Shown: one piece after another, positions 3,001 through 61,373 of the stretch
Layout of the letters: each line of letters begins with the position of its first letter
Numbering within the stretch: position 1 is the first letter of the stretch
Source: a virus
Reading direction: 5' to 3' (one strand)
DNA length: 64,000 bases
Virus record (IMG/VR): IMGVR_UViG_3300037247_001890
Location: 96,001 to 160,000 of that record
Position numbers and translations under genes: made by a program
The notes under the pieces: model-generated
What the model saw: only the letters and a program-made list of their open reading frames with translations
Told to the model about the DNA's origin: nothing
Databases searched by the model: none

Positions 3001-6000
3001 AGCATCAGGATCTAAATCAGTAATATTCCAACCTGAAAGAGAATTATATGTACTTCCATAAAAATTATCCGCTCCACCAACCGATATATTATTTATAACA
3101 ATACCCCAATCACCAGTAAGGCGAAATCCCCTTGTACAATCCACCATTGTATTATTATAACATCTTACACTACCAGCATCTCCAGCATTTATTCTAACTC
3201 CATAAAAACAATCATAAGTGATGTTGTTAGAAAAATAGATTTTTTCACCCGCACTTAATGAGTCATTAAACCATGCATAGCATTCTTCTGCTCCACCACC
3301 ATCTTTAAGAATACATTTCTCAATTCTTAAATCAACTGTCCCTGTTAAAGCCATCAGCGACTGAGTAGCGGTATCTAGGGTAGTAGAAAAAGCAATACCC
3401 TCAAAACGAACATGGTCTTCTTGAATTATGACTGACTCAGCAGAACCAGTATACTCAAATCTATACTTATTTCCAGTTGGGTAAACTCCAGCATGTCTGT
3501 AGCTTTCAGTAGGATCAGTCCATATTTTTATGTAATTAGCAGATTCTGTAGTCCAACCAGCTATGCTAAAAGTATCCGTATCTGCAGTACCACCAGTACA
3601 TCTACAAGTAGCAACAGAAGCCTTATACAATCCTACTGCAGTTAAATCAGTTTCCTCGTTTGATTCCCATACATTTAATGAACTATAATCAAATCCTGCA
3701 CCTGAATCAGGATCAACTATTCTATTGTATTCTAGAGAATGATGAGCACCAATATCAAAATTATCAGTAGATGAAGACCCGCGAGAATTTCCTAGAACAT
3801 CATCTGTAACAGGAGAGTTAGCGTCTGCATAAAGATTAGTACCATGGAACATGGCTAAAGTATCTTCAGCAGTTAAAAAATAATTTCCAGGTTGAAAATC
3901 AGGAGTTCCAAAAATATTAGAGGTTACACGATAGGCTTCATTACCTGTATCAAATGCGTCAGAACTTAAAGTTAATTGAGTGTCTGAATCAACCACCGTC
4001 ACATAAGCATAACTTGAATCAGTTGTATTAGCTACAACGGAACCAACTATTGCAGCACTTAACCCACCACCAGAATCATTTAATTGATTTGCACCGTAAG
4101 AAGTTGCTGTACCAGTCGTTAAATCAGTATTAATCCCACCTAAAGAATTTGCAACTAGTGTTCCGTCTTCAATTATATTATAGCCAGTGTCGTCATTTGT
4201 TGAATCAGTTGCTCTATCAGTTTGATCTTGATATATATTATTGATTTGTATTGTAGTTCCGGCATTTCTATCAACTCCAAGATTTCCTCCAATAAGGACA
4301 TTATTATAGACATAAACCGTTCCAGATGAAGTCATATAAATACATAATGCCGATGCATGTGCAGAAATATCATAAAATATATTATTATGTATTTTAACGA
4401 CTTGATTTGTAAGACCACCACCCTCAATATCAATACCAGTTTGATAATAAGTAGAACCACCGTTTCCTCTAATTAAATTATGGGAAAATATAAACTCACC
4501 AGTATCATCAGCCTGGCTATTCATGTTGATAATATGCCTATTATCCGTAGTTTGATTTCCTAAGAGTTGTATTCCAATAACTCTAAAATGTTCAACGGTA
4601 GTGGCAAGGGTGGAAGAACCAGCAGTTCCCTCAAGCCTGTATTCGTTAGTATCCCATGAACCTCTGTGGCCATAATCTGGATCTAGCAATCCATTGACTT
4701 CAACATAATTATCAGGATCAGTAGTCCATCCATCAAAAGCCATAGTACCATCAGCGGTTCCTGCTGTAGCATAGCATTCTACAATTGCTGTTTTATACAA
4801 TCCTGTAGCAGTTAAATCAGCTTGTTCAGTCGATTCATAACTACTTAAAGAAGTGTAATCATATCCCGGGTATGAAGAATCCGTATCGACTACCTTACCA
4901 TATTCTAGACTGTGATGTGCTCCTACATCAAAGAAATCTGTAGTTGATGCTCCTCTTGAATTTCCTAATACGTCGTCAGTAACAGGAAGATCAGAGTCTG
5001 CATAAAGATTTGTTCCTTTAAATATTGCTACTTCATCAAAATAATTAAGAGTAAAATCATCGCTTTCTTCTGCATTAAAATCAACCGTACCATACATATT
5101 AGTATATACAAAATAATCTTCATTACCGGTATCAAAAATATCATCAGCTAAAGTCAATTGAGTATCTGAATCAACAACAGTTACATAAGAATAAGTTGAA
5201 TCAGTATCATTTTCTACTATACTTCCTACTTGAGCCGCAGATAAACCACCACCCGAATCATTTAATTTGTTAGCACCATAAGATGTTGCAGTTCCCGTAG
5301 CATGGGTAGAACCAAACGTCCCCAAGGCACTAGTTGTATTAATTACATTATATCCTGCTTCAGAACCAAAATTACCATCAAAATCATCAGTACAATTATT
5401 AACTATATTATTTATAGCGATAGTATCACCAGCGGAAGTATCTATTCCCGTGTAACAATTAACTATTGTATTATTATAAAAATAAGCTTTACCACTTGTA
5501 CTATCCTCACCATGCATTCCATTATTATCACCATCATCTCCTATATCATATATTATATTATTAGAAGCATAATTATTACCAGACCCCGTATTATTAGACA
5601 TGTAAATACCCGTCCCACCTCCACCAGCCGTATCATGTCTAACTATACATTTTTCAATTCTATTCTCTCTAGAAGCTCTACATCTAATATTAATAGCACT
5701 TGCTACATTTACCGCAGTAATTTGTAAACCGATTATCCGAGTATAATTTTGTTCAACGGTGACTGTATTAGAGCCTGCATTTATAGAAGTTATCCTATAC
5801 TCACTATCATCCCACTTACCGCGATGTCCATAAGAAGAATCTAATAGACAATTAACTTCAACATAATTTCCGTCCTCTGTTGTCCATCCATCTATAGTTG
5901 TTCCACTACCCTGTGAATCAATAGTACCAGATGTAGCATAACATTCAAAAACTACGTACTCGTCCGAACCAGAAGTGAGAGTTATATCACCCTGTTCAGT

Positions 6001-51677: not shown

Positions 51678-53516
51678 TTGAGCGTACTATTTATTGACAC
51701 CAAGGATGCTTTCACTGATTTGCTGAAAGCAGTTCGAAGGTTGGGTAATACACCAATAGCTTTAGACACTGAAACTACAGGTCTAGATCCCTTCACTTCA
51801 AAAATATTATTAATACAGCTTGGAACCGAACAAGGTAACCAAGCAGTAATAGATGTGGAAAAAACATTATTTGCACATCCGGATTTACAACCGGAATTCA
51901 AAGAAGTAATGGAAGATCCACAACAAGTTTTCATATTGCATCAAGCAAAATTTGATTACAAAGTACTTAAACATCATCTTAATATAGAACTTTTACATTT
52001 AAGAGACACCATTGTAGCGGCGCATTTGATTAGAGCCGGCATACAAAAAAAGGGGTTCGGATTAGATGATCTCCTAAAGGATTATAATATCGCTGATTTG
52101 TCCAAGTCAGTAAGACAAACTTTTATTAATCACAAAGGACCTTTCACAGACAAACAAATACAGTATTCTGCGGACGACGTGACCTATTTACACAAATTAC
52201 ACAAAGTCTTAATGATGGATATCATAGATTTAAGATTAGATTCAGTTTATAATATGGAATGCGAAGTAATACCAGTCACGGGTGACATGGAATTAAACGG
52301 ACTTCATCTGGATTTTGCAAAATGGAGTGCTCTTGAGGCCATAGCAAAAAAAGAGAGTTTAATAAAAAAAGAAGAATTGGACAAATATTTTCTTCCATAT
52401 TGTGATAAAGATCTGTTTGGAGATCCTATAATTAATTATAATTCTCCTTTACAGCTTAAACCAATATTAGAGAAAATTTTAAAGCGTAGCATTACTGGGA
52501 CTGGAAAAGAAGTTTTAGAAAGAATTCTTAATCCAGCAGTAAGAGCTTTGTTAAAATACAGGGAATATGAAACACGAGTAACCCGCTATGGTAGTGCTTT
52601 TTATAAAGAACATAAGCACTCAGTAACCGGGCGAATACATCCAACCTTCATACAAATAGGAGGTACTGACTCTGGCCGTTACTCTAGCCGTGATCCTAAT
52701 GCCCAAAACATACCACGTGAAACCGCATATCGCGCTGCATTTACTGCGGAACCAGGCCGGAAAATAGTAGGTTCTGATTATGGTAGTATGGAACTGGTCC
52801 TACTTGCAGAATTCTCTAAAGATCCAGAATTTAAGAAGATATTTGATCTGGGGTTAGATGCCCATGGTCACGTAGCCACGATGATTATGAATAAACTGGT
52901 TATCGAAAAAGGCAAAAAATATCTTGATAAAGACGGAGTCGTACAAACAGCAACAGAAGATGTTAACGCTGATTTACGACCTGTCGGAAAAAATATTAAC
53001 TTCGGTGTAGCATACGGATTAGGACCAACCAGATTGGCCAATTCGTTGGAAGTAGAATATGAAGAAGCAAAAGAATTGCTTGCAAAATTCTGGAAAGCAT
53101 TTCCAAAAGTAAGAATATTTTTAGAGGCCAGAGCAACGGAATCTCTAGAAAACGAATGTGTCAGATGTTATATGGACAATCGTTTAAGGTGGCTTAAAGG
53201 CTTTAACCTAAGATTACCTAAGCAGCGAGCACACGCAGCCAATATAGCAAAGAACATGTCTTTACAATCGGGTAATGCAACTATAACCAAAAAAGCATTA
53301 TTTTTAGTGAAACAAGAAATTAACAAAAAAGGATGGGCAGATGATTGTTTGATTATCTCCACTATCCATGATGAAATACTACTAGAAGTAAAAGAATCAA
53401 TAGCCAACGACGCGCGTGATATGCTAAGTTCTAAAATGTTAGAAGCCGCACATTTGTGGATTAAAAATACACCTGTAATAGCAGATGCGTATGTATCTAA
53501 CCACTGGGTAAAATAA
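51678..53516 (+). CDS. polA: Family A DNA polymerase (3'-5' exonuclease + polymerase, no 5' nuclease)
   Basis: LDTETTGLD, HQAKFD, YSADD, SGRYSSRDPNAQNIP, DYGSMEL, R..GKNINFGVAYG, IHDE. Confidence 0.92.
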   Translation: MSVLFIDTKDAFTDLLKAVRRLGNTPIALDTETTGLDPFTSKILLIQLGTEQGNQAVIDVEKTLFAHPDLQPEFKEVMEDPQQVFILHQAKFDYKVLKHHLNIELLHLRDTIVAAHLIRAGIQKKGFGLDDLLKDYNIADLSKSVRQTFINHKGPFTDKQIQYSADDVTYLHKLHKVLMMDIIDLRLDSVYNMECEVIPVTGDMELNGLHLDFAKWSALEAIAKKESLIKKEELDKYFLPYCDKDLFGDPIINYNSPLQLKPILEKILKRSITGTGKEVLERILNPAVRALLKYREYETRVTRYGSAFYKEHKHSVTGRIHPTFIQIGGTDSGRYSSRDPNAQNIPRETAYRAAFTAEPGRKIVGSDYGSMELVLLAEFSKDPEFKKIFDLGLDAHGHVATMIMNKLVIEKGKKYLDKDGVVQTATEDVNADLRPVGKNINFGVAYGLGPTRLANSLEVEYEEAKELLAKFWKAFPKVRIFLEARATESLENECVRCYMDNRLRWLKGFNLRLPKQRAHAANIAKNMSLQSGNATITKKALFLVKQEINKKGWADDCLIISTIHDEILLEVKESIANDARDMLSSKMLEAAHLWIKNTPVIADAYVSNHWVK

Positions 53517-54199: not shown

Positions 54200-54771
54200 A
54201 TGTAGACGGCTGCATATTGGATTTTGAATATGCATATACGCCTATACTCGAAGCAGAAGGTCTTCAATTAAATGATGATGATTACCAACAATGGGATATC
54301 TTAAAAACAAGAGGCTACACAAGGAGACAAGTATATCGACTTGTGGTGAGAACCTGGGAATCTGATTATTTTGAAGATCTTCCATATATTTCTGGTGCCA
54401 AAAATTTCTTAAAATGGGCATCACAAGAATACAACATAATATATAATACTACCGTTCCAGAACTATATCATGAAAAAAGAATAAAAAATTTAAACAAACT
54501 TGGCATTCTTGATGATGTAGGGGCTTACATTCGATTCGCAAAATCACATAGAGACAAATCTAGAATTGTCGGAAGTTCTAATAATAGCATTGCTTTTATA
54601 GATGATAAACCTAAAAATGTTTCTGCTGTAAAAGAAGATTGGCCCAACATACTATCTATTTGGTATAATCATGACGGACTTATGAATGTCTATGATTATG
54701 ACCCTGAACCAGATTATGAAGCACATTCATGGTTAAAAGTAAAAAGAATTCTACAAAAAGAAAATGGCTAA
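54175..54771 (+). CDS. HAD-family 5'(3')-deoxyribonucleotidase-like
   Basis: LDVDGCILDF, FEDLPY..GA, FIDDKPKNV. Confidence 0.8.
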   Translation: MEKKDLFLDVDGCILDFEYAYTPILEAEGLQLNDDDYQQWDILKTRGYTRRQVYRLVVRTWESDYFEDLPYISGAKNFLKWASQEYNIIYNTTVPELYHEKRIKNLNKLGILDDVGAYIRFAKSHRDKSRIVGSSNNSIAFIDDKPKNVSAVKEDWPNILSIWYNHDGLMNVYDYDPEPDYEAHSWLKVKRILQKENG

Positions 54772-55115
54772 TATTTCTTAGGAATCCTCAATTTCAAATG
54801 AAACTCGTTCCTAAATCTCAGCGTATAACAAAAACAGATGAATCATTAATAGGTCAGACAATTATTAATTGCTATGAAGGGAGTCGTTATAAATTAACCA
54901 TCAAAAATATTTATATTGATGAGAAAAAACAACTTTGCATAGAATGCATAGACAATGATCAAAGACTAAGAACACTGTTAGCAAAGGATTGCAAACTTAT
55001 TCAAAAAAATAAAAAACCTGGAATAAGAAAAAAGACTTCTAGGTCTTCTAATTCAAAATCTCCGACAAAGGTAATTAAAAGAAAAAGAAGAAAGACCAAG
55101 AAATCTAATACTTAA
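54729..55115 (+). CDS. Hypothetical protein with Lys/Arg-rich tail (start uncertain)
   Basis: C-terminal KRKRRKTKK. Confidence 0.5.
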   Translation: MVKSKKNSTKRKWLIFLRNPQFQMKLVPKSQRITKTDESLIGQTIINCYEGSRYKLTIKNIYIDEKKQLCIECIDNDQRLRTLLAKDCKLIQKNKKPGIRKKTSRSSNSKSPTKVIKRKRRKTKKSNT

Positions 55116-55143
55116 TATTATGTTTCGTAATAAATAAAGTATT

Positions 55144-55239
55144 CCTGCTCATCACTCCTAGAGCCTTCTGGGCATACGTCCACCTAATAGGGAGCCTATT
55201 AGGCGTACGCTTACCCTTCAGGCCTACGAGATGAGCAGG
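55144..55239 (+). ncRNA. ~96-nt rod-shaped structured element (candidate ncRNA; strand inferred)
   Basis: cctgctcatc/gatgagcagg outer stem and cctaatagg-gag-cctattagg apex; GC-rich intergenic DNA. Confidence 0.55.
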
Positions 55240-55341
55240 CAGAGGCACAAACCAAATGTTTAATTAAGCTGGAAAGATAAAAAAAGAAAAATGTGGGCAA
55301 GTCGGAGAGCCCAACCATTTTTCTCTTACTATCAAAAAACA

Positions 55342-55536
55342 ATGGAAATATTATTTATAAAATTTAATGATATAAATGGAAATAGTTATACAATGAATAT
55401 ATCCGAAATATTGATGATAGCGAATAGAGATAGTGACATAGAAGTAATCACGATATATGAGGATAGTATTATGATAGATCAGGAAACTTACAAATCTATA
55501 GATAATGCATTAGATAACAAGAAATTACTAATTTAA
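55342..55536 (+). CDS. Small acidic hypothetical protein (start moved to MEILFIKF)
   Basis: The upstream 17 codons of the track ORF coincide with a hairpin. Confidence 0.5.
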   Translation: MEILFIKFNDINGNSYTMNISEILMIANRDSDIEVITIYEDSIMIDQETYKSIDNALDNKKLLI

Positions 55537-55551
55537 GGAAAAATTAAGTTA

Positions 55552-56310
55552 ATGGCAGAAACTCAGCTACACCAACACCTGGCGGCCGAGCCCAATATTA
55601 AGGCAAAAGAGCTCGCGCTAGGTAAAGAAACAGAACATACCTTAAGCAAAAAAGCACATCACTTTGTGGGTAATGTTCGTACATACCAGCCAAAAGAGGA
55701 TACTGGTGAAAAATTTCCGGATGAGCTTGAACCTCTCGTAACTACTGTACCGGAAAAATTACAATATTATTTGGATTCTCTTTCAGACCTAATAAGTCAT
55801 TCAGTTGTAAAAGAAGAGACCAATGCTACTGCTATCGCAGATCTTATTTATGATAAGAAAGTCATAAAGAAAGACGTACATGCAACGGCTTTATTGACCC
55901 TGGAAAATAAATTAAAAGGATTAAGATCTAAATTGATGGCCATTCCTACCCTGGATCCAAAATATATGTGGAACTGGAATAAAGATCAAAATTATTACCA
56001 AACAGATCCAATCCAAACTCTGAAATCTAAGAAAGTTCCAACAGTTTTAGTTAAGTATGAAGCGACAGATAAGCATCCGGCACAGACTGAATTGATTCAT
56101 GAGGATCAAACAGTTGGAATATGGACAACAACAAAGCTTTCTGGAGCAATTTCGTCAAAAATGAAATCCGAAATATTGACTCGCTACGACAAGTGGGAAT
56201 TAGCTGTAAAAGATGCCCGTCAAAGAGCCAATAACGCGAAACTTGTTGTTGACGGAAAACTCGGAGTTGTTATTACTGATAGCATTCTCCATGGAACTTT
56301 ACCAATATAA
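55552..56310 (+). CDS. Uncharacterised 252-aa protein; candidate partner of the downstream RNA
   Basis: QLHQHLAAE...GNVRTYQPKED.GE..P...ATALLTLE..L...IPTLDP...YEATDKHPAQ...VG.W....LSGA...AVKDARQRAN. I recall this pattern as a conserved hypothetical family; unverified. Confidence 0.75.
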   Translation: MAETQLHQHLAAEPNIKAKELALGKETEHTLSKKAHHFVGNVRTYQPKEDTGEKFPDELEPLVTTVPEKLQYYLDSLSDLISHSVVKEETNATAIADLIYDKKVIKKDVHATALLTLENKLKGLRSKLMAIPTLDPKYMWNWNKDQNYYQTDPIQTLKSKKVPTVLVKYEATDKHPAQTELIHEDQTVGIWTTTKLSGAISSKMKSEILTRYDKWELAVKDARQRANNAKLVVDGKLGVVITDSILHGTLPI

Positions 56311-56519
56311 ATGACACTAGACTCAAGCTAAGACTCAGACTAAAAATCCTGTTTTTGTTTGTAAGAGGTAAATAGGTAGATCCAGTACCAACTTCCATAT
56401 GGAAGTTCGAAAATTCTAACCGTTAGCTTCTGAAGACAATATAAATCAGTTTTAAACTTAGACTTTGTGTCCAGACTAATACTGCAACACGCCTAAAGTA
56501 ACCGTTTGTATTTTTTTCC

Positions 56520-56604
56520 ATCAAAACAGGGGTTCGATTCCCCTCCGCGCCTCCAGGTATGAACACGTCACATACGGCGCGGTCGTCTAGCGGTAAGACG
56601 TGAT
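56520..56604 (+). ncRNA. Circularly permuted tRNA-like domain (YrlA/Y-RNA-like order: T arm, acceptor, D arm)
   Basis: T arm agggg-TTCGATT-cccct (56528-56544); ccgcgcc-T-CCA (56545-56555); linker hairpin; ggcgcgg (56576-56582); D arm gtct-AGCGGTA-agac (56585-56599); closed by atca/tgat. No anticodon loop. Confidence 0.85.
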
Positions 56605-56709
56605 CGTTTCAGACTAAACAACAAACTGGTGAAAATTCAACTAGACAGGCATAAGCGGTGAGCTCTCAAACATCAACTAACACTTGAAATTTGATTGATT
56701 TCATACTTT

Positions 56710-56751
56710 GCGCGCGGCATACTCGGGGTACGAGCAGCTGCGCGCTTTTTT
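56710..56751 (+). terminator. Intrinsic terminator
   Basis: gcgcgcggc...gctgcgcgc followed by TTTTTT. Confidence 0.75.
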
Positions 56752-56773
56752 ATTTAAAAGGAAACAAATATTA

Positions 56774-57433
56774 ATGGCAAAAACAATAGGTGACACATAC
56801 ATAGCGATCGTTTTAGACGGTAGTGGATCTATGTCAGGAGACATACAGACAACAATTACAGGTGTCAACGAGATCATAGATTTAATGAAAGCTGAAAAAA
56901 CAAAACTTGCTGGAAAAGTGAAAGTATCTTTGGTTGTATTCCGCAACCGTGAAGGCGAAGTAATTTATTTTAATGAAGACGCCGATAAAGCCTCTCATTT
57001 GGACAATGAAAATTATATACCATCAGGATCAACCCCTATGTATGATGGTATAGGACAAGCAATAAAATTAATTGATGGGGTTATCAAAGACGATGATGCA
57101 GCACTTGTCTATATTTTTACAGACGGCTGGGAGAATAGTTCATCAATTTATAATAAAGAAGACATCAATTCTTTGATTGAAGAACGCGAAGAAAGTGGAA
57201 ATTGGACGTTTGTATTTCAAGGGATAGAAGGTCTCGATAAACAATTGGATTTAAATTTTGCTACGAACAATGTTATGTCATATAGCGACTCTGCTGGAGG
57301 ACGTAAATGGGCATACCAAGAAACTGCTAAAGGACTCCAATCATATTTTGATTCAAGACACAAGGGATACACGCAAGTCTCAAATTTTTACGATCCGGAC
57401 AAGCGAACGTTCGAAAATAAGAAAAAGGAATGA
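56774..57433 (+). CDS. Stand-alone vWA domain protein (start moved to MAKTIGD)
   Basis: IVLDGSGSM (MIDAS DxSxS), GSTPMYDGIG, IFTDGWENSS, WTFVF.G; SD AAGGA before 56774. Confidence 0.88.
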   Translation: MAKTIGDTYIAIVLDGSGSMSGDIQTTITGVNEIIDLMKAEKTKLAGKVKVSLVVFRNREGEVIYFNEDADKASHLDNENYIPSGSTPMYDGIGQAIKLIDGVIKDDDAALVYIFTDGWENSSSIYNKEDINSLIEEREESGNWTFVFQGIEGLDKQLDLNFATNNVMSYSDSAGGRKWAYQETAKGLQSYFDSRHKGYTQVSNFYDPDKRTFENKKKE

Positions 57434-57468
57434 AAAGTACTGGTATAATTACCAGTACACCTAACCCA

Positions 57469-57597
57469 CGGGGGTAGTTTAAAAAAGACTAATCAAAAAC
57501 GCAATGCAGTGTAAGCCCTGAAGCTGGGAGCCTATCCGTTAAAAAAGGCAGGTTATACGGCAGCGATGAGACGCGGAGAAGCGTTTTCCGTCCCCCG
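57469..57597 (+). ncRNA. ~130-nt four-arm structured element (degenerate cloverleaf-like)
   Basis: cggggg/cccccg closing stem; tagttt/agacta; long gtgtaa/ttatac arm; gagacgc/gcgtttt. Confidence 0.5.
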
Positions 57598-57626
57598 AAA
57601 GTATAATAATTTATTCTAAGAAACTT

Positions 57627-57838
57627 CAAGCTCGTGGGTATTATGTAGTGCCATTCGAGGTTATCTACGTATACCCTAGAAGTCCGTAATGGTGGTAAAT
57701 TGCTTCAAGAAAAGCACATCCCACGGGTCGGAACCCTGGGCCTCGAAGAGATTCTTACCATGGACATGGTAATCGTCCACCAGTGAATTGAGGGGATCAA
57801 AACTTGTGTGAAGCGGTTAAAATCCGCAAACGAGCTTG
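57627..57838 (+). ncRNA. ~210-nt multi-stem pseudoknotted RNA (raiA-motif-like architecture suspected)
   Basis: P1 caagctcgt/acgagcttg; gggta-tatgtag/ctacgta-taccc; loop ttcgagg pairs with cctcgaa (57741-57747); ggtgg/ccacc encloses three hairpins. Confidence 0.7.
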
Positions 57839-57862
57839 TTTATAATAAGGAGATATTTTTAA

Positions 57863-58084
57863 ATGGGTGCTAAAACACAAAAAGTTGGTGGTGGGAGCAA
57901 AAAACTTGGGCGAGATAAAAAGAAATGCGAACGATATAAGCTTGCAAGAAAAAAGGAAAAGAATAAAGAAAGAAAAAAACTCCGCTATGAGCTAAAAATG
58001 GAAAAGGCAAAAGCAGGCAAATTGAAAAGAAAAAAGAAAAAAGAACGGGCGAAAGCAGAAGCGTCTGTTCCAAAAGAAACATAA
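57863..58084 (+). CDS. Small Lys/Arg-rich basic protein
   Basis: SD AAGGAG; extremely basic 73 aa, flanked by structured RNAs. Confidence 0.65.
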   Translation: MGAKTQKVGGGSKKLGRDKKKCERYKLARKKEKNKERKKLRYELKMEKAKAGKLKRKKKKERAKAEASVPKET

Positions 58085-58089
58085 GATGC

Positions 58090-58805
58090 TAGCGGTTACT
58101 AACCGCTACTAGAACCAGATTGTCGTCTCGACTTTCATTTAATGGTTCTATTTGTTGTAACCTTGACATCCCTGTCTCGTTTACAACAAATCATTCCGCT
58201 CAAGGATGGGATCCTAGTAAGGTAGCCGGCACTGCAGTGTGAAGGAGAGCTCCTTCAGCAGGTCTCGCGATCGCACGCGCAAGAACGCGCAAGCACGCGG
58301 ACGCCTGGTCCCAGAGACGCATGCAGCTGGCAGGTACCTCGACGGGAAGAAACCCGGGGGACTCCGGAAACGACGCATTACAGCGAAGAAGACATGATCG
58401 TATAGCGGCGTATAAAAATGAAGAAATGGGACGCACAGAGTGACGTCCTCTGTCCATTTCTTCTAAGAGTACATGGTATGTGCTTTTAGAAGAGATGGGT
58501 AGAATGATTCGTTTTATCAAGAATCTCCTTTTTTCTCGACCTAGCAGCGAAGGGCAGCTGCAAATCCCGAAGAAAGGTCTACGGGATTTACTGCTCGCCC
58601 ACTCGCAGTCATGTCGGAAAAATAGTAAGTACAGGTGGATATGCAGCTTTATCAGAGCCTACAATATCTGCCTGCCTTCTTACACAAGGTGAGCTGTAGT
58701 AAAAGTTGACATGCAACTTGGCTAGTTGTTACGACTAGCTTTTTAGTAAAATGAATGTATACAAGGAAACGTTTCACTCGCAAGGTGAAAAGTACAGCTT
58801 TTTTT
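58090..58805 (+). ncRNA. ~720-nt array of abutting hairpins with a GC-rich multi-stem domain (one long or several ncRNAs)
   Basis: Hairpins at 58090-58108, 58110-58150 and 58150-58191; GC-rich core 58196-58408; 26-bp G.U-containing stem 58449-58503; rods at ~58529-58622 and ~58625-58683; agctgta/tacagct plus T-run at the end. Confidence 0.65.
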
Positions 58806-58855
58806 ATCTTTAAGTTGGAATAAGAAATATAGAATAAAAAAAGAGGAGATAAAAA

Positions 58856-59065
58856 ATGATTTGTCCAAACAAAGAAAAGTTTTTATCAGAAAAAAGACGC
58901 CTAAAAATACAAATGGGCAATCTTGATAAAGACAAAATTCCTGAAAAGATGTCTAATCGACTTGAGGTTATTAATAAACGATTAGCCGAAATAGAAAAAA
59001 TACAAAAAACAACAGATCCTGCAAATGGTTTAGATGATACAGAATACGCTATGATGGGAGATTAA
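58856..59065 (+). CDS. Small hypothetical protein
   Basis: SD GAGGAG; 69 aa. Confidence 0.6.
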   Translation: MICPNKEKFLSEKRRLKIQMGNLDKDKIPEKMSNRLEVINKRLAEIEKIQKTTDPANGLDDTEYAMMGD

Positions 59066-59096
59066 AATAGGGAGGAATTTTCCCCCCTATTTTTTT
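59064..59096. terminator. Bidirectional terminator between convergent blocks
   Basis: aaaatagggagga-attt-tcccccctatttt with A and T runs on either side. Confidence 0.75.
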
Positions 59097-59100
59097 ACAT

Positions 59101-59762: not shown

Positions 59763-61373
59763 TTAGAACTGTAGTTCTATCTTGATGTAATTGACAGGAT
59801 ATTTGACTAATACATTTAGACTAATTTCTATGGTATCAGGGGCTTCTTCAGCCTGTTCAATCTTAAGAATTTTAATATCATTGACATGGCCGTTTTTAAT
59901 AAGGTATAAAATTTGTGCCTGTAGTGACATAGTAAGCAATTTCAAGAACTGTGGACTAATATTATAACGTCCAATATAACCGGATAATCCATTACGCATG
60001 AATTTTGCTATAAAATCTAAAGTTTTCAAAATACTCAATTCCCGTCTTTCAACAGAAGTCATATCAGTTGTTAATTGATGTCTACAGTAAATTGGTGCTG
60101 TCGAAGAAGTTTGAATTAACAGATAATTACCACCCTCGGCCATAGTATTAAGATCAGATTCGGTAAATTTATCCATTGAATACATCAAACGACTTATTCC
60201 GGTCACAGCTAAATTAGTAAATGGTGTTTCAGGTGGATATCCAGAAATCATACCACCAATAGCTGCTGCACCAATAGTACCAGGTACAGGAGATTCAACT
60301 ATCATAAAAGTATTTTCTGTTGCTAGGTTAGATAACATAGCAGGAGTTAGTATTTCACCTTTTCTGTAAGAATACCTAGTTCCACTTACTGTAACAGTTT
60401 TATTTTCACCTAAATAAAACGGTATGCCCGAAACGCCTTGAACTGCATCACGATAAGCATTTGTCAATGTAGATACATGACGTGATTCAGTTACAAATAT
60501 TGTATCAGGAAAAGAATAGACAAGTCTACGCTCTTGTTGAACATATGCAGCTTCTTTTATCGCTCCAGCTGTAACAGCTGTGTCAGCGCCATCTGCGTCG
60601 GAAGGATCACCACCGGCATCTTTCCAAGGTATACTTGGTGCGGCCACAACCATTCTCTCACGTTTTTCTTCTGGGGCTGAATAAGTAATTGCATGTGTTT
60701 TGCAGGCACTAATAACACCTGCTGTTGTTGTTAAAGGAACCATTGCATAAATTTCTCTGGTCTTTAACGTATCGAATGCTACATCTGAAGAAATGAATTC
60801 ATTAGAAGTTGGCGCTGGTGAATCTTCAGTTACCGGGGATGCGTGTACATACCCGCCAGTATTGAGCATTGCTTTGTGTAATCCTACTCCTAATGGATTG
60901 TAGGATATGGTTGAACCTATTTTTTCTTCTATATCATCCAAATCCGACATAGTCAGAAATGGGTCTAGATCAGTACGAAGTGCACGATATCCAATTTCAA
61001 TTGCTGCACCATCATCTAATCCAACAACTTCAGGATAAGTCGCACCCAAACTCGCATTTATTTGTACAGATGTAGCACCTGCTGTAAAATCCGCAGCAGA
61101 ATCAAGATGTACTCTTGTACCTGCAGAAGCCCCAGTGCCACCAATCAGATCAACATACACACTCGCTGTGTGTACTTCTGCTCCTGATGGTAATCCAGCA
61201 TAATCAACATCTATCTGGACTCCGCTGTATACTTCTATGTAAGAATAATCTCCTACTTCTTCAACAAAAAATGCTTTTCCAATTATAACCGTTCCTAAAT
61301 CAGGAGAGATTAAACTTGGAGAAACCCTTACTTGGGTTTGAGTAACTTCGACACCTGGTTTTACATAACCCAT
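59763..61373 (-). CDS. Contractile tail sheath protein
   Basis: MGYVKPGVEV N-terminus; PFTN, RHQLTT, RELSI.KTLDF.AK, YIGRYNI, VKYPVNYIKIEL C-terminus. Confidence 0.88.
   Translation of the reverse strand: MGYVKPGVEVTQTQVRVSPSLISPDLGTVIIGKAFFVEEVGDYSYIEVYSGVQIDVDYAGLPSGAEVHTASVYVDLIGGTGASAGTRVHLDSAADFTAGATSVQINASLGATYPEVVGLDDGAAIEIGYRALRTDLDPFLTMSDLDDIEEKIGSTISYNPLGVGLHKAMLNTGGYVHASPVTEDSPAPTSNEFISSDVAFDTLKTREIYAMVPLTTTAGVISACKTHAITYSAPEEKRERMVVAAPSIPWKDAGGDPSDADGADTAVTAGAIKEAAYVQQERRLVYSFPDTIFVTESRHVSTLTNAYRDAVQGVSGIPFYLGENKTVTVSGTRYSYRKGEILTPAMLSNLATENTFMIVESPVPGTIGAAAIGGMISGYPPETPFTNLAVTGISRLMYSMDKFTESDLNTMAEGGNYLLIQTSSTAPIYCRHQLTTDMTSVERRELSILKTLDFIAKFMRNGLSGYIGRYNISPQFLKLLTMSLQAQILYLIKNGHVNDIKILKIEQAEEAPDTIEISLNVLVKYPVNYIKIELQF

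What the first reader, a model, noticed from the sequence alone, without database searches (positions are those of the whole stretch)
55116..58855. A 3.7-kb island dominated by structured non-coding RNA in an otherwise gene-dense phage
Seen: elsewhere genes abut or overlap. Here roughly half the DNA is non-coding, GC-enriched and foldable (55116-55341, 56311-56773, 57434-57862, 58085-58855). It is interleaved with a conserved-looking unknown protein, a vWA protein and a very basic small protein. No canonical tRNA is present. Inference: a phage ribonucleoprotein locus of several ncRNAs plus candidate RNA-binding proteins, occupying the position where large phages often keep tRNA clusters.
Basis: partly seen in the sequence, partly recalled or inferred. 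Interest (0 to 1): 0.8.

Follow-up and report, generated by a model that had tools for sequence, protein, structure and literature searches.

The report
Phage island of structured RNAs, tRNA mimic
Half of this 3.7-kb phage stretch encodes conserved folded RNAs, and one carries a back-to-front tRNA look-alike that follows an unknown protein gene (DUF7873) in about 95% of that gene's relatives, pointing to an undescribed RNA-protein unit related in design to Ro60/Y-RNA particles.

Summary
The four non-coding intervals are exact and make up 1889 of 3740 nt. They are GC-enriched (0.41-0.45 against 0.357) and fold better than shuffles (z -2.6, -4.1 and -8.2 for the three tested). They are conserved in six related uncultivated phages, with more compensatory pair changes than controls.

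Interval 56311-56773 holds a circularly permuted tRNA-like domain: T-arm, 7-bp acceptor stem closed by a variable loop, encoded UCCA, then D-arm. A covariance model built only from distant loci hits it at 63 bits (E 7e-17). The same element, usually as two tandem copies, follows about 95% of 131 diverse DUF7873 genes on the same strand, often inside phage tRNA arrays.

The architecture is that of YrlA-type Y RNAs. Membership fails: no Ro60 gene nearby, no GNCGAA motif, no Rfam hit.

The vWA gene, the basic 73-aa gene and the other three RNA regions occur only in this small clade, and their roles are open. I have no transcript data.

This scan had already found the DUF7873/tRNA-mimic pair on other DNA (at least 79 genomes). 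New here are the loss of the first tRNA-like head, the extra RNAs, and a separate Ro60-like/YrlA-like locus in the same genome.

The parts
55144..55239 (+). IG-A long hairpin closed by CCUGCUCAUC/GAUGAGCAGG with a variable tip. The strand is uncertain.
   Evidence: Conserved in 7 clade members (A8). 12 pairs change on both sides against 6.1 in shuffles. The reverse strand folds slightly better.
55287..55324 (+). Terminator-like hairpin with a flanking A-run and U-run, possibly bidirectional.
   Evidence: Read from the sequence. Nearly invariant in relatives.
55342..55536 (+). Small acidic protein gene (64 aa, pI 4.1), specific to the clade.
   Evidence: tblastn in relatives and the frame break upstream of M18 in L002. 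pI. No Pfam or PHROG family.
55552..56310 (+). DUF7873 protein gene (252 aa), the conserved partner gene of the tRNA-mimic RNA.
   Evidence: Pfam PF25283, E 5.5e-69. 423 homologues. AF2 model pLDDT 85 with no convincing solved-structure match. No fused longer forms found.
56313..56478 (+). RNA domain 1: a long-range helix rich in AGACU motifs that encloses a plain, covarying hairpin. It stands where relatives carry the first tRNA-like head.
   Evidence: RNAalifold. Homology to the two-headed RNAs of L031, L021 and L118. AGACU occurs 6 times in 463 nt against 0.56 per kb in the window.
56480..56661 (+). RNA domain 2: a three-segment handle stem (UACUGC/GCAGUG, GCCU/AGGC, ACCGUUUGU/ACAAAC-GGU) capped by the permuted tRNA-like head.
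   Evidence: RNAalifold with compensatory changes. Covariance model R1 hit at 56514-56607, 63.1 bits, E 7e-17.
56528..56544 (+). T-arm: AGGGG, loop UUCGAUU, CCCCU.
   Evidence: Sequence, pattern scan, R1.
56545..56555 (+). Acceptor 3' strand CCGCGCC, then discriminator U and an encoded CCA.
   Evidence: Sequence. CCA follows the discriminator in 34 of 83 family members.
56556..56575 (+). Hypervariable closing loop of the acceptor stem. Counted from the end of the acceptor 3' strand to the start of the 5' strand, the intervening stretch is 20 to about 240 nt in relatives. This is the likely excised segment.
   Evidence: Alignment A3. The intervening stretch runs 6-243 nt across the family.
56576..56599 (+). 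Acceptor 5' strand GGCGCGG, then UC, then the D-arm GUCU-AGCGGUA-AGAC.
   Evidence: Sequence. GUCU/AGAC changes to GUCC/GGAC in relatives.
56710..56751 (+). Intrinsic terminator of the RNA: a GC-rich hairpin followed by a U-run.
   Evidence: Sequence. Conserved with one compensatory pair.
56774..57433 (+). Stand-alone vWA (YegL/TerY-like) protein gene of 219 aa, specific to the clade.
   Evidence: Pfam VWA and VWA_2. PHROG 7371, function unknown. 22 homologues, nearly all in the clade. No meaningful similarity to the vWA part of the genome's Ro60-like protein.
57437..57457 (+). 9-bp hairpin directly after the vWA stop codon.
   Evidence: Three compensatory pairs.
57469..57597 (+). IG-C module C1: a domain closed by a GGGG/CCCC helix with internal hairpins. 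It is absent from relative L168.
57627..57838 (+). IG-C module C2: a domain closed by the 9-bp helix CAAGCUCGU/ACGAGCUUG. It contains several covarying hairpins and a T-loop hairpin (57813-57827) next to the 3' strand of the closing helix.
   Evidence: Four compensatory pairs in the closing helix. The T-loop stem varies GCGG/CCGC, GUGG/CCAC and GAGG/CCUC, and the loop is UUCGAAU in L165.
57863..58084 (+). Very basic 73-aa protein gene (32 K+R, pI 10.5), specific to the clade.
   Evidence: No Pfam or PHROG family.
58085..58806 (+). IG-D: an RNA of about 720 nt with many hairpins, conserved 5' and 3' parts and a hypervariable GC-rich centre (about 58195-58415). It ends in the helix 58692-58699/58792-58799 followed by a U-run.
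   Evidence: z -8.2. 113 consensus pairs, 28 with compensatory change against 11.4 in shuffles. The forward strand is favoured, -97 against -77 kcal/mol. No relatives outside the clade.
58856..59065 (+). 69-aa protein gene that closes the + strand block. The tail genes on the - strand follow.
   Evidence: tail sheath at 59763-61373 on the - strand.

Best explanation
The island is a phage locus that makes structured non-coding RNAs.

Core module. Its core is found far beyond this phage: the DUF7873 gene (55552-56310) followed on the same strand by an RNA of about 440 nt (56311-56751) that ends at its own terminator. The main domain of that RNA is a long handle stem capped by a circularly permuted tRNA mimic. 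The order is anticodon-stem-like helix, 4-nt variable loop, T-arm, 7-bp acceptor stem, then D-arm. This is the design of YrlA-type Y RNAs.

Inferred mechanism. I infer that DUF7873 binds this RNA, most likely at the single-stranded AGACU repeats or the handle. I also infer that RNase P cuts 5' of G56576 and that 3' trimming stops at the encoded UCCA. That would remove the hypervariable loop and leave a two-piece RNA with a free tRNA-like acceptor end and no anticodon. Such a particle would present a tRNA end to enzymes that act on tRNAs, either tethering them to DUF7873 or diverting them. It would not decode.

Local variant. In this clade the first of the usual two tRNA-like heads has been replaced by a plain hairpin. 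The module has also gained clade-specific neighbours of unknown role: a vWA protein, a very basic 73-aa protein and three more structured RNA regions (IG-A, IG-C with two modules, IG-D of about 720 nt).

Shown: the anatomy, the conservation, the covariation, and the gene-RNA co-occurrence. Inferred: transcription, protein binding, processing and function.
For: Anatomy was read from the sequence and confirmed by a weak permuted-tmRNA match over the T-arm and acceptor stem (19.6 bits).

Co-occurrence:
- A strict pattern (T-arm, perfect 7-bp acceptor stem, D-arm) is found within 900 nt downstream of DUF7873 on the same strand in 76 of 131 non-redundant loci. It is found 0 times in 1.0 Mb of the opposite strands.
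- Covariance model R1, built from 38 distant loci without this clade, hits the window once, at 56514-56607 (63.1 bits, E 7e-17).
- R1 also finds elements downstream of DUF7873 in about 50 of the 55 loci that the pattern missed, usually as two tandem copies.

Covariation in the family: 93.5% of cells are paired against 59% in shuffles, and the score is 0.915 against 0.24 (0 of 500). This includes the anticodon-like helix, which the pattern did not require. That helix is perfect at canonical offsets in 50 of 83 elements against 0 in a slid control.

Processing signals: CCA follows the discriminator in 34 of 83 elements (about 1.3 expected by chance), C74 is nearly universal, and U is common at position -1. 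The acceptor loop is hypervariable, 20 to about 240 nt in the clade. Precedent: M. smegmatis YrlA, which has a 7-bp acceptor stem, is cut by RNase P and receives CCA (PMC4201824).

Neighbours: no protein recurs beside DUF7873 in more than 7 of 152 loci, so the RNA is its only constant companion.

Other gaps: they are conserved, structured and covarying.
Against: - There are no transcript, binding or processing data.
- DUF7873 has no recognisable RNA-binding fold or solved relative and is near neutral (pI 7.8).
- In this clade position -1 is C, and only the window copy encodes the full CCA. Relatives read UCUAA or UCAAG.
- The genome encodes no RNase P RNA at the Rfam gathering score, so processing would depend on the host.
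- The genome also encodes a Ro60-like protein, which could be the true partner in trans.
- The clade alignments hold only 7 sequences, and the structures tested were derived from those same alignments. That inflates the covariation measures for IG-A, IG-C and IG-D.
- An earlier in-scan check priced the claim that DUF7873 binds this RNA and works without Ro60 at only 22/100.
Confidence: 0.55

Rival explanations
1. The RNA is an ordinary Y RNA (YrlA class) that serves the phage's own Ro60-like protein, encoded 93 kb away. On this reading DUF7873 is only a neighbour.
For: The genome encodes a DUF2828/DUF7788 Ro60-like protein (PHROG 850 'RNA-binding protein'). It is followed by a second permuted tRNA-like RNA that scores 34 bits against Rfam YrlA and 47 bits against R1. 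The two elements share a 16-nt acceptor-loop motif that occurs nowhere else in the genome.
Against: The RNA follows DUF7873 in about 95% of 131 loci. tblastn with this genome's Ro60-like protein detects no relative in any of those loci within about 5 kb. The YrlA motif GNCGAAN0-1G is absent here and present in only 1 of 83 family members. Rfam YrlA does not hit the window element even at E up to 5.
Confidence: 0.1
2. IG-A, IG-C and IG-D are not independent RNAs. They would be untranslated leaders, trailers, terminators or attenuators of the flanking genes, or decaying remnants of lost genes or mobile elements.
For: They lie between co-oriented genes and have no relatives outside a 7-member clade. 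Parts are dispensable: C1 is missing in L168, half of C2 in L002, and the GC-rich centre of IG-D in L165. A promoter-like site overlaps the end of C2, just before the basic gene. There are no transcript data.
Against: Their sizes (429 and 771 nt) and z-scores (-4.1 and -8.2) go beyond ordinary UTRs. Closed multi-helix domains carry 24 and 28 compensatory pairs, above both controls. The forward strand is favoured. Cross-frame, both-strand similarity argues against pseudogenes.
Confidence: 0.2
3. The tRNA-like element is a translation RNA: a permuted or split tRNA gene, or a two-piece tmRNA.
For: It has a canonical T-arm, D-arm, 7-bp acceptor stem and encoded CCA. It gives a weak Rfam permuted-tmRNA match. 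The stretch after the D-arm reads like a Glu anticodon loop in the window copy.
Against: That stretch changes from UUUCAG to UUUAAG in close relatives, and the helix continues into a long handle rather than a 7-nt loop. There is no G3:U70 pair. The open frame downstream is not conserved: L004 has a stop and a frame shift (read from A3). ARAGORN, which detects permuted tmRNA, reports nothing. The genome already has a standard tmRNA.
Confidence: 0.03
4. The gaps hide protein genes that are read with a reassigned stop codon.
For: Some large phages recode TAG or TGA (my own knowledge). Reading TGA as Trp gives a 210-codon open run in IG-D.
Against: The rest of the window is densely coding under table 11. 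The vWA gene ends in TGA at a length conserved among its homologues. No reassignment opens a + strand frame across any gap. Indels among relatives are not multiples of three.
Confidence: 0.02

Closest known systems
YrlA-type bacterial and phage Y RNAs with Ro60/Rsr (Rfam RF02553; Chen et al. 2014, PMC4201824; Wang et al. 2018, bioRxiv 10.1101/312249)
   Same: The module order is the same: T-arm, loop-closed acceptor stem, D-arm, with the RNA ends forming a long stem in place of an anticodon loop. It is encoded next to, and on the same strand as, a protein gene. [quoted passage not shown] Tandem RNAs (YrlA/YrlB) also occur there.
   Different: The constant neighbour is DUF7873, an alpha/beta protein with no match to the Ro60 HEAT ring, rather than a TROVE protein. 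The GNCGAAN0-1G Ro-binding motif is absent. Rfam YrlA does not hit. CCA is frequently encoded. AGACU repeats are present. The module usually lies inside phage tRNA arrays.
Two-piece (circularly permuted) tmRNA (Rfam RF04321)
   Same: The gene order is permuted, with the T-arm, acceptor 3' strand and CCA upstream of the acceptor 5' strand, and a variable intervening segment that is removed during maturation.
   Different: There is no G3:U70 alanine identity pair and no conserved tag reading frame or pseudoknots. The D-arm is canonical. The Rfam score is 19.6 against a gathering score of 47.
The DUF7873 / two-headed tRNA-mimic RNA pair reported repeatedly by this scan on other genomes (e.g. e1-2703945, e1-4274050). 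I found no published description.
   Same: Same protein family, same strand and spacing, same permuted tRNA-like head, and sequence homology over both RNA domains to two-headed members.
   Different: In this clade the first head has lost its T-arm, acceptor stem and D-arm, leaving a plain hairpin. The module lies outside the tRNA array. It is followed by clade-specific vWA and basic-protein genes and three further structured RNA regions. The genome also carries a Ro60-like/YrlA-like locus.
Large phage-associated structured RNAs near tRNA genes (GOLLD, ROOL; from my own knowledge of Rfam families)
   Same: IG-D is a long (about 720 nt), highly structured phage RNA with conserved and variable parts.
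   Different: No Rfam match at any threshold tried. It is known only from 7 related phages.

Membership tests
YrlA / Y RNA (RF02553) | T-arm-like and D-arm-like stem-loops separated by an acceptor-like stem-loop, with the RNA termini in a long stem | tested here: met
   Sequence, consensus fold and R1 hit, compared with the description in PMC4201824.
YrlA / Y RNA (RF02553) | GNCGAAN0-1G motif near the 5' end (the proposed Ro60 contact) | tested here: not met
   No match in 56311-56773, and a match in only 1 of 83 DUF7873-associated elements.
YrlA / Y RNA (RF02553) | Encoded within about 4 kb of a Ro60/TROVE gene on the same strand | tested here: not met
   The nearest Ro60-like gene is at genome 57301-58683, 93 kb away. 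tblastn with that protein finds none in the other DUF7873 loci.
YrlA / Y RNA (RF02553) | Rfam covariance model score at or above the gathering score (69 bits) | tested here: not met
   No YrlA hit at E up to 5 in 55000-59100. The genome's other element reaches 34 bits.
YrlA / Y RNA (RF02553) | Bound by Ro60/Rsr | not testable with these tools
   Needs immunoprecipitation.
DUF7873-associated tRNA-mimic RNA (in-scan family, unpublished) | Permuted tRNA-like head within about 1 kb downstream of a DUF7873 gene on the same strand | tested here: met
   Pfam. R1, built without this clade, scores 63.1 bits.
DUF7873-associated tRNA-mimic RNA (in-scan family, unpublished) | Two tandem tRNA-like heads in one RNA | tested here: not met
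   R1 hits the window only once. Domain 1 aligns to head 1 of L031, L021 and L118 but lacks the T-arm and D-arm.
Two-piece tmRNA (RF04321) | G3:U70 pair, conserved tag reading frame, and a score at or above 47 bits | tested here: not met
   Position 3:70 is C:G. The frame is not conserved. The score is 19.6 bits, and ARAGORN finds nothing.
Permuted tRNA genes (as in Cyanidioschyzon; my own knowledge) | A 7-nt anticodon loop restored after circularisation | tested here: not met
   The anticodon-like helix runs on into a covarying handle stem, and the 'anticodon' letters vary among close relatives.
Ro60 (TROVE + vWA) as a split gene pair DUF7873 + vWA | DUF7873 folds as a HEAT-repeat ring like TROVE, and the vWA part is of the Ro60 type | tested here: inconclusive
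   The AF2 model is alpha/beta with long hairpins, and no Ro60 appears among the structural matches. The vWA protein matches the generic VWA and VWA_2 models but not vWA_Ro60, and it shows no similarity to the genome's Ro60-like vWA part.

The most novel reading that the evidence does not exclude
DUF7873 and its RNA form a Ro60-independent tRNA-mimic ribonucleoprotein. After RNase P opens the acceptor loop, the particle presents a real tRNA acceptor end without an anticodon, to capture or divert host enzymes or defence nucleases that act on tRNA ends. In this phage clade the particle has been enlarged into a multi-RNA, multi-protein system. That system adds the vWA protein, the basic 73-aa protein, the T-loop-bearing IG-C RNA and the 720-nt IG-D RNA, and it works alongside a separate Ro60-like/Y-RNA particle in the same virus.
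Probability: 0.2. Interest if true: 0.85.

Novelty: new variant of a known kind. Interest (0 to 1): 0.65.

Why it matters
Y RNAs with tRNA-like domains are known only as partners of Ro60, and what the tRNA-like domain does is still open. This phage, and about 130 other loci, show the same RNA design tied to a different, uncharacterised protein.

The RNA also carries signals of tRNA-type end processing: a 7-bp acceptor stem, an encoded CCA and a disposable loop. That makes two questions directly testable. Which cellular machines read a tRNA shape that lacks an anticodon? Why do large phages carry such mimics beside their tRNA genes?

Cultured carriers exist, including Gordonia phage GodonK, Klebsiella phage FBKp24, Ralstonia phage phiRSL1 and several Rhizobium and Vibrio phages.

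The window adds three points:
- A natural one-headed variant of the RNA.
- Three further structured RNAs with no known family.
- A genome in which the Ro60-type and DUF7873-type systems coexist and share an acceptor-loop motif.

Tried and rejected
- Rfam at gathering and permissive thresholds gave no family for any of the four gaps.
- BLASTN of the island against isolate phages found no match.
- A single-sequence search of viral contigs with DUF7873 found nothing; the alignment was needed.
- DUF7873 fold searches (Foldseek PDB, VIA-align wide, ESM atlas) gave only helical-hairpin look-alikes and a weak DUF6847/DIP1984 neighbour, with no usable assignment. A PDB profile search found nothing.
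- No fused longer forms of DUF7873 were found.
- No conserved protein neighbour of DUF7873 was found.
- The DUF7873 + vWA complex prediction returned no verdict (score 0.00).
- Hidden genes: alternative stop-codon readings and ORF conservation in the gaps were rejected.
- The shared loop motif GGTATGAACAYGTCAC was searched in IMG/VR. It gave 17 hits, none in a tRNA-like context, so it is not a family feature.
- nhmmer profiles of IG-A, IG-C and IG-D found no relatives outside the clade.
- An earlier first-reader note mentions a phage RNase P RNA in this genome. Rfam finds none at the gathering score.

Full report
**Setting.** The window is bases 96001-160000 of a single 169,274-bp phage contig. 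It is densely coding under table 11. The island lies at the end of a + strand block that holds a sigma factor, a family A DNA polymerase and a nucleotide kinase-like gene. Just after it, tail genes begin on the - strand (tail sheath at 59763-61373).

**Observation.**
- Two gene starts needed correcting. The small gene starts at 55342, because its upstream 17 codons are out of frame in a relative. The vWA gene starts at 56774.
- Apart from window-end artefacts, they are the only gaps of 150 nt or more in the 64-kb window.
- They are GC-enriched at 0.41-0.45 against 0.357.
- Three of them were folded singly and beat dinucleotide shuffles, with z -2.6, -4.1 and -8.2.
- There is no canonical tRNA and no Rfam family in the window.
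- Recoded hidden genes and conserved ORFs in the gaps were excluded.

**The key element.**
- Reading 56500-56620 shows, in order: a T-arm (AGGGG-UUCGAUU-CCCCU), the strand CCGCGCC, UCCA, a 20-nt loop, the complementary GGCGCGG, and a canonical D-arm. This is a tRNA turned inside out.
- Rfam gives only a weak permuted-tmRNA match.
- A paralogous element lies elsewhere in the genome, directly after a 460-aa DUF2828/DUF7788 Ro60-like gene. That copy scores 34 bits against Rfam YrlA, which is below threshold.
- The order T-arm, acceptor stem-loop, D-arm is exactly the one described for YrlA Y RNAs. M. smegmatis YrlA, which has a 7-bp acceptor stem, is cut by RNase P and receives CCA (PMC4201824).

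**Association with DUF7873.**
- The gene upstream is a strong DUF7873 match with 423 homologues.
- I fetched 80 viral and 80 metagenomic loci and six close relatives.
- A strict pattern finds the permuted element within 900 nt downstream of DUF7873, on the same strand, in 76 of 131 non-redundant loci. It finds none in 1.0 Mb of the opposite strands.
- The acceptor stems all differ in sequence.
- The anticodon-like helix was not part of the pattern, yet it is perfect at canonical offsets in 50 of 83 elements against 0 in a slid control.
- CCA follows the discriminator in 34 of 83 elements.
- A covariance model was built from 38 distant loci, leaving out this clade and the Ro60-like locus. It hits the window once, at 56514-56607 (63.1 bits, E 7e-17), and hits the Ro60-linked element at 47.3 bits.
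- The model also finds elements downstream of DUF7873 in about 50 of the 55 loci that the pattern missed, usually as two tandem copies about 150 nt apart. Overall about 95% of loci carry the RNA.
- No protein neighbour recurs in more than 7 of 152 loci.
- In isolate phages the gene sits in or beside tRNA arrays.
- No paper in the library mentions DUF7873.
- The scan's own notes show the same pair in at least 79 other genomes. One later check rated the protein-RNA binding claim at 22/100.

**Anatomy of the RNA here.** The consensus fold of the seven clade members gives four parts:
- Domain 1 (56313-56478) is a long-range helix around a plain hairpin, and all six pairs of that hairpin covary.
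- Domain 2 (56480-56661) is a three-segment handle stem capped by the tRNA-like head.
- A small hairpin follows.
- A terminator (56710-56751) ends the RNA.

Further points:
- The acceptor loop ranges from 20 to about 240 nt.
- Domain 1 aligns with the first tRNA-like head of the two-headed relatives L031, L021 and L118, but it has lost the T-arm, acceptor stem and D-arm.
- The linkers carry six AGACU motifs, 23 times the window density, and these are conserved in those relatives.
- The YrlA motif GNCGAAN0-1G is absent.

**The other gaps.**
- IG-A is a 96-nt hairpin followed by a terminator-like hairpin. Its strand is uncertain.
- IG-C holds a hairpin and two closed domains. The second (57627-57838) has a covarying 9-bp closing helix and a T-loop hairpin beside it.
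- IG-D is an RNA of about 720 nt with many hairpins, a hypervariable GC-rich centre and a terminal helix followed by a U-run.
- All three exceed the shuffled and slid controls for compensatory pairs. However, the alignments hold only seven sequences, and the structures tested came from those same alignments.
- None has a relative outside the clade.
- The vWA protein is YegL/TerY-like and restricted to the clade. It shows no likeness to the Ro60-like vWA part.
- The basic protein has no family.

**Reading.**
- Shown: the anatomy, conservation and covariation of four structured regions, and the tight gene-RNA pairing for DUF7873.
- Inferred: transcription, DUF7873 binding, opening of the acceptor loop by RNase P to give a two-piece RNA with a CCA end, and a role as a tRNA-end mimic that tethers or diverts tRNA-acting factors.
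- Rivals: service to the Ro60-like protein in trans (0.1), UTR or remnant status for the clade-specific gaps (0.2), a translation RNA (0.03), and recoded genes (0.02).

**Verdict.** The core is a new variant of the Y-RNA/tRNA-mimic kind, already met by this scan on other DNA. This clade adds local features that remain unexplained.

Noticed in passing
L001:801-2830 (genome 57300-59330, outside the window): A Ro60-like DUF2828/DUF7788 gene (PHROG 850 'RNA-binding protein') sits directly after the tRNA array. It is followed by a YrlA-like permuted tRNA mimic (L001:2296-2389; Rfam YrlA 34 bits, R1 47 bits) and about 440 nt more of non-coding DNA with repeated ACAGCA motifs.
   Followed up: partly
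window 56556-56571 and L001:2337-2352: The two permuted tRNA-like elements of this genome share the acceptor-loop motif GGTATGAACAYGTCAC, although their arms differ. The motif occurs nowhere else in the genome, and close relatives have other loops. In IMG/VR it occurs only in unrelated contexts. Possible causes are gene conversion between the two loci or a shared trans-acting partner. This remains unexplained.
   Followed up: partly
L004:5991-6228 and L167:5496-5738: Two relatives carry an insertion of about 240 nt, partly similar between them, inside the acceptor loop of the tRNA mimic. This suggests the loop tolerates insertions or is excised.
   Followed up: no
L171:5012-5091 (Klebsiella phage vB_KpM_FBKp24, MW394391.1): The record annotates a 'tRNA-Sup-TTA' that overlaps the second permuted tRNA-like head downstream of its DUF7873 gene (R1 hit at 5050-5149). 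The suppressor tRNA call is probably an artefact of the mimic.
   Followed up: partly
L173:16251-16596 (genome 36251-36596): The phage encodes a standard one-piece tmRNA (Rfam 91.8 bits) just upstream of its tRNA array. No RNase P RNA reaches the gathering score anywhere in the genome.
   Followed up: yes
L004:746-3073 against window 51678-53516: The family A DNA polymerase is one 612-aa gene in the window. In the L004 relatives it is split into 429-aa and 176-aa parts by an inserted 166-aa ORF, which may be a mobile insertion.
   Followed up: no
window 54729-55115: The gene just upstream of the island encodes a very basic 128-aa protein (pI 10.6) with a Lys/Arg-rich tail. It is conserved in the clade and matches no family. 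It is another possible nucleic-acid binder.
   Followed up: no
L174:6223-6377 (genome 46223-46377): Two adjacent, similar tRNA-Met genes score 47.8 bits with the permuted-tRNA model. This is the dimeric-tRNA false positive that Chen et al. also warn about, and it is a caution for scans inside tRNA arrays.
   Followed up: yes
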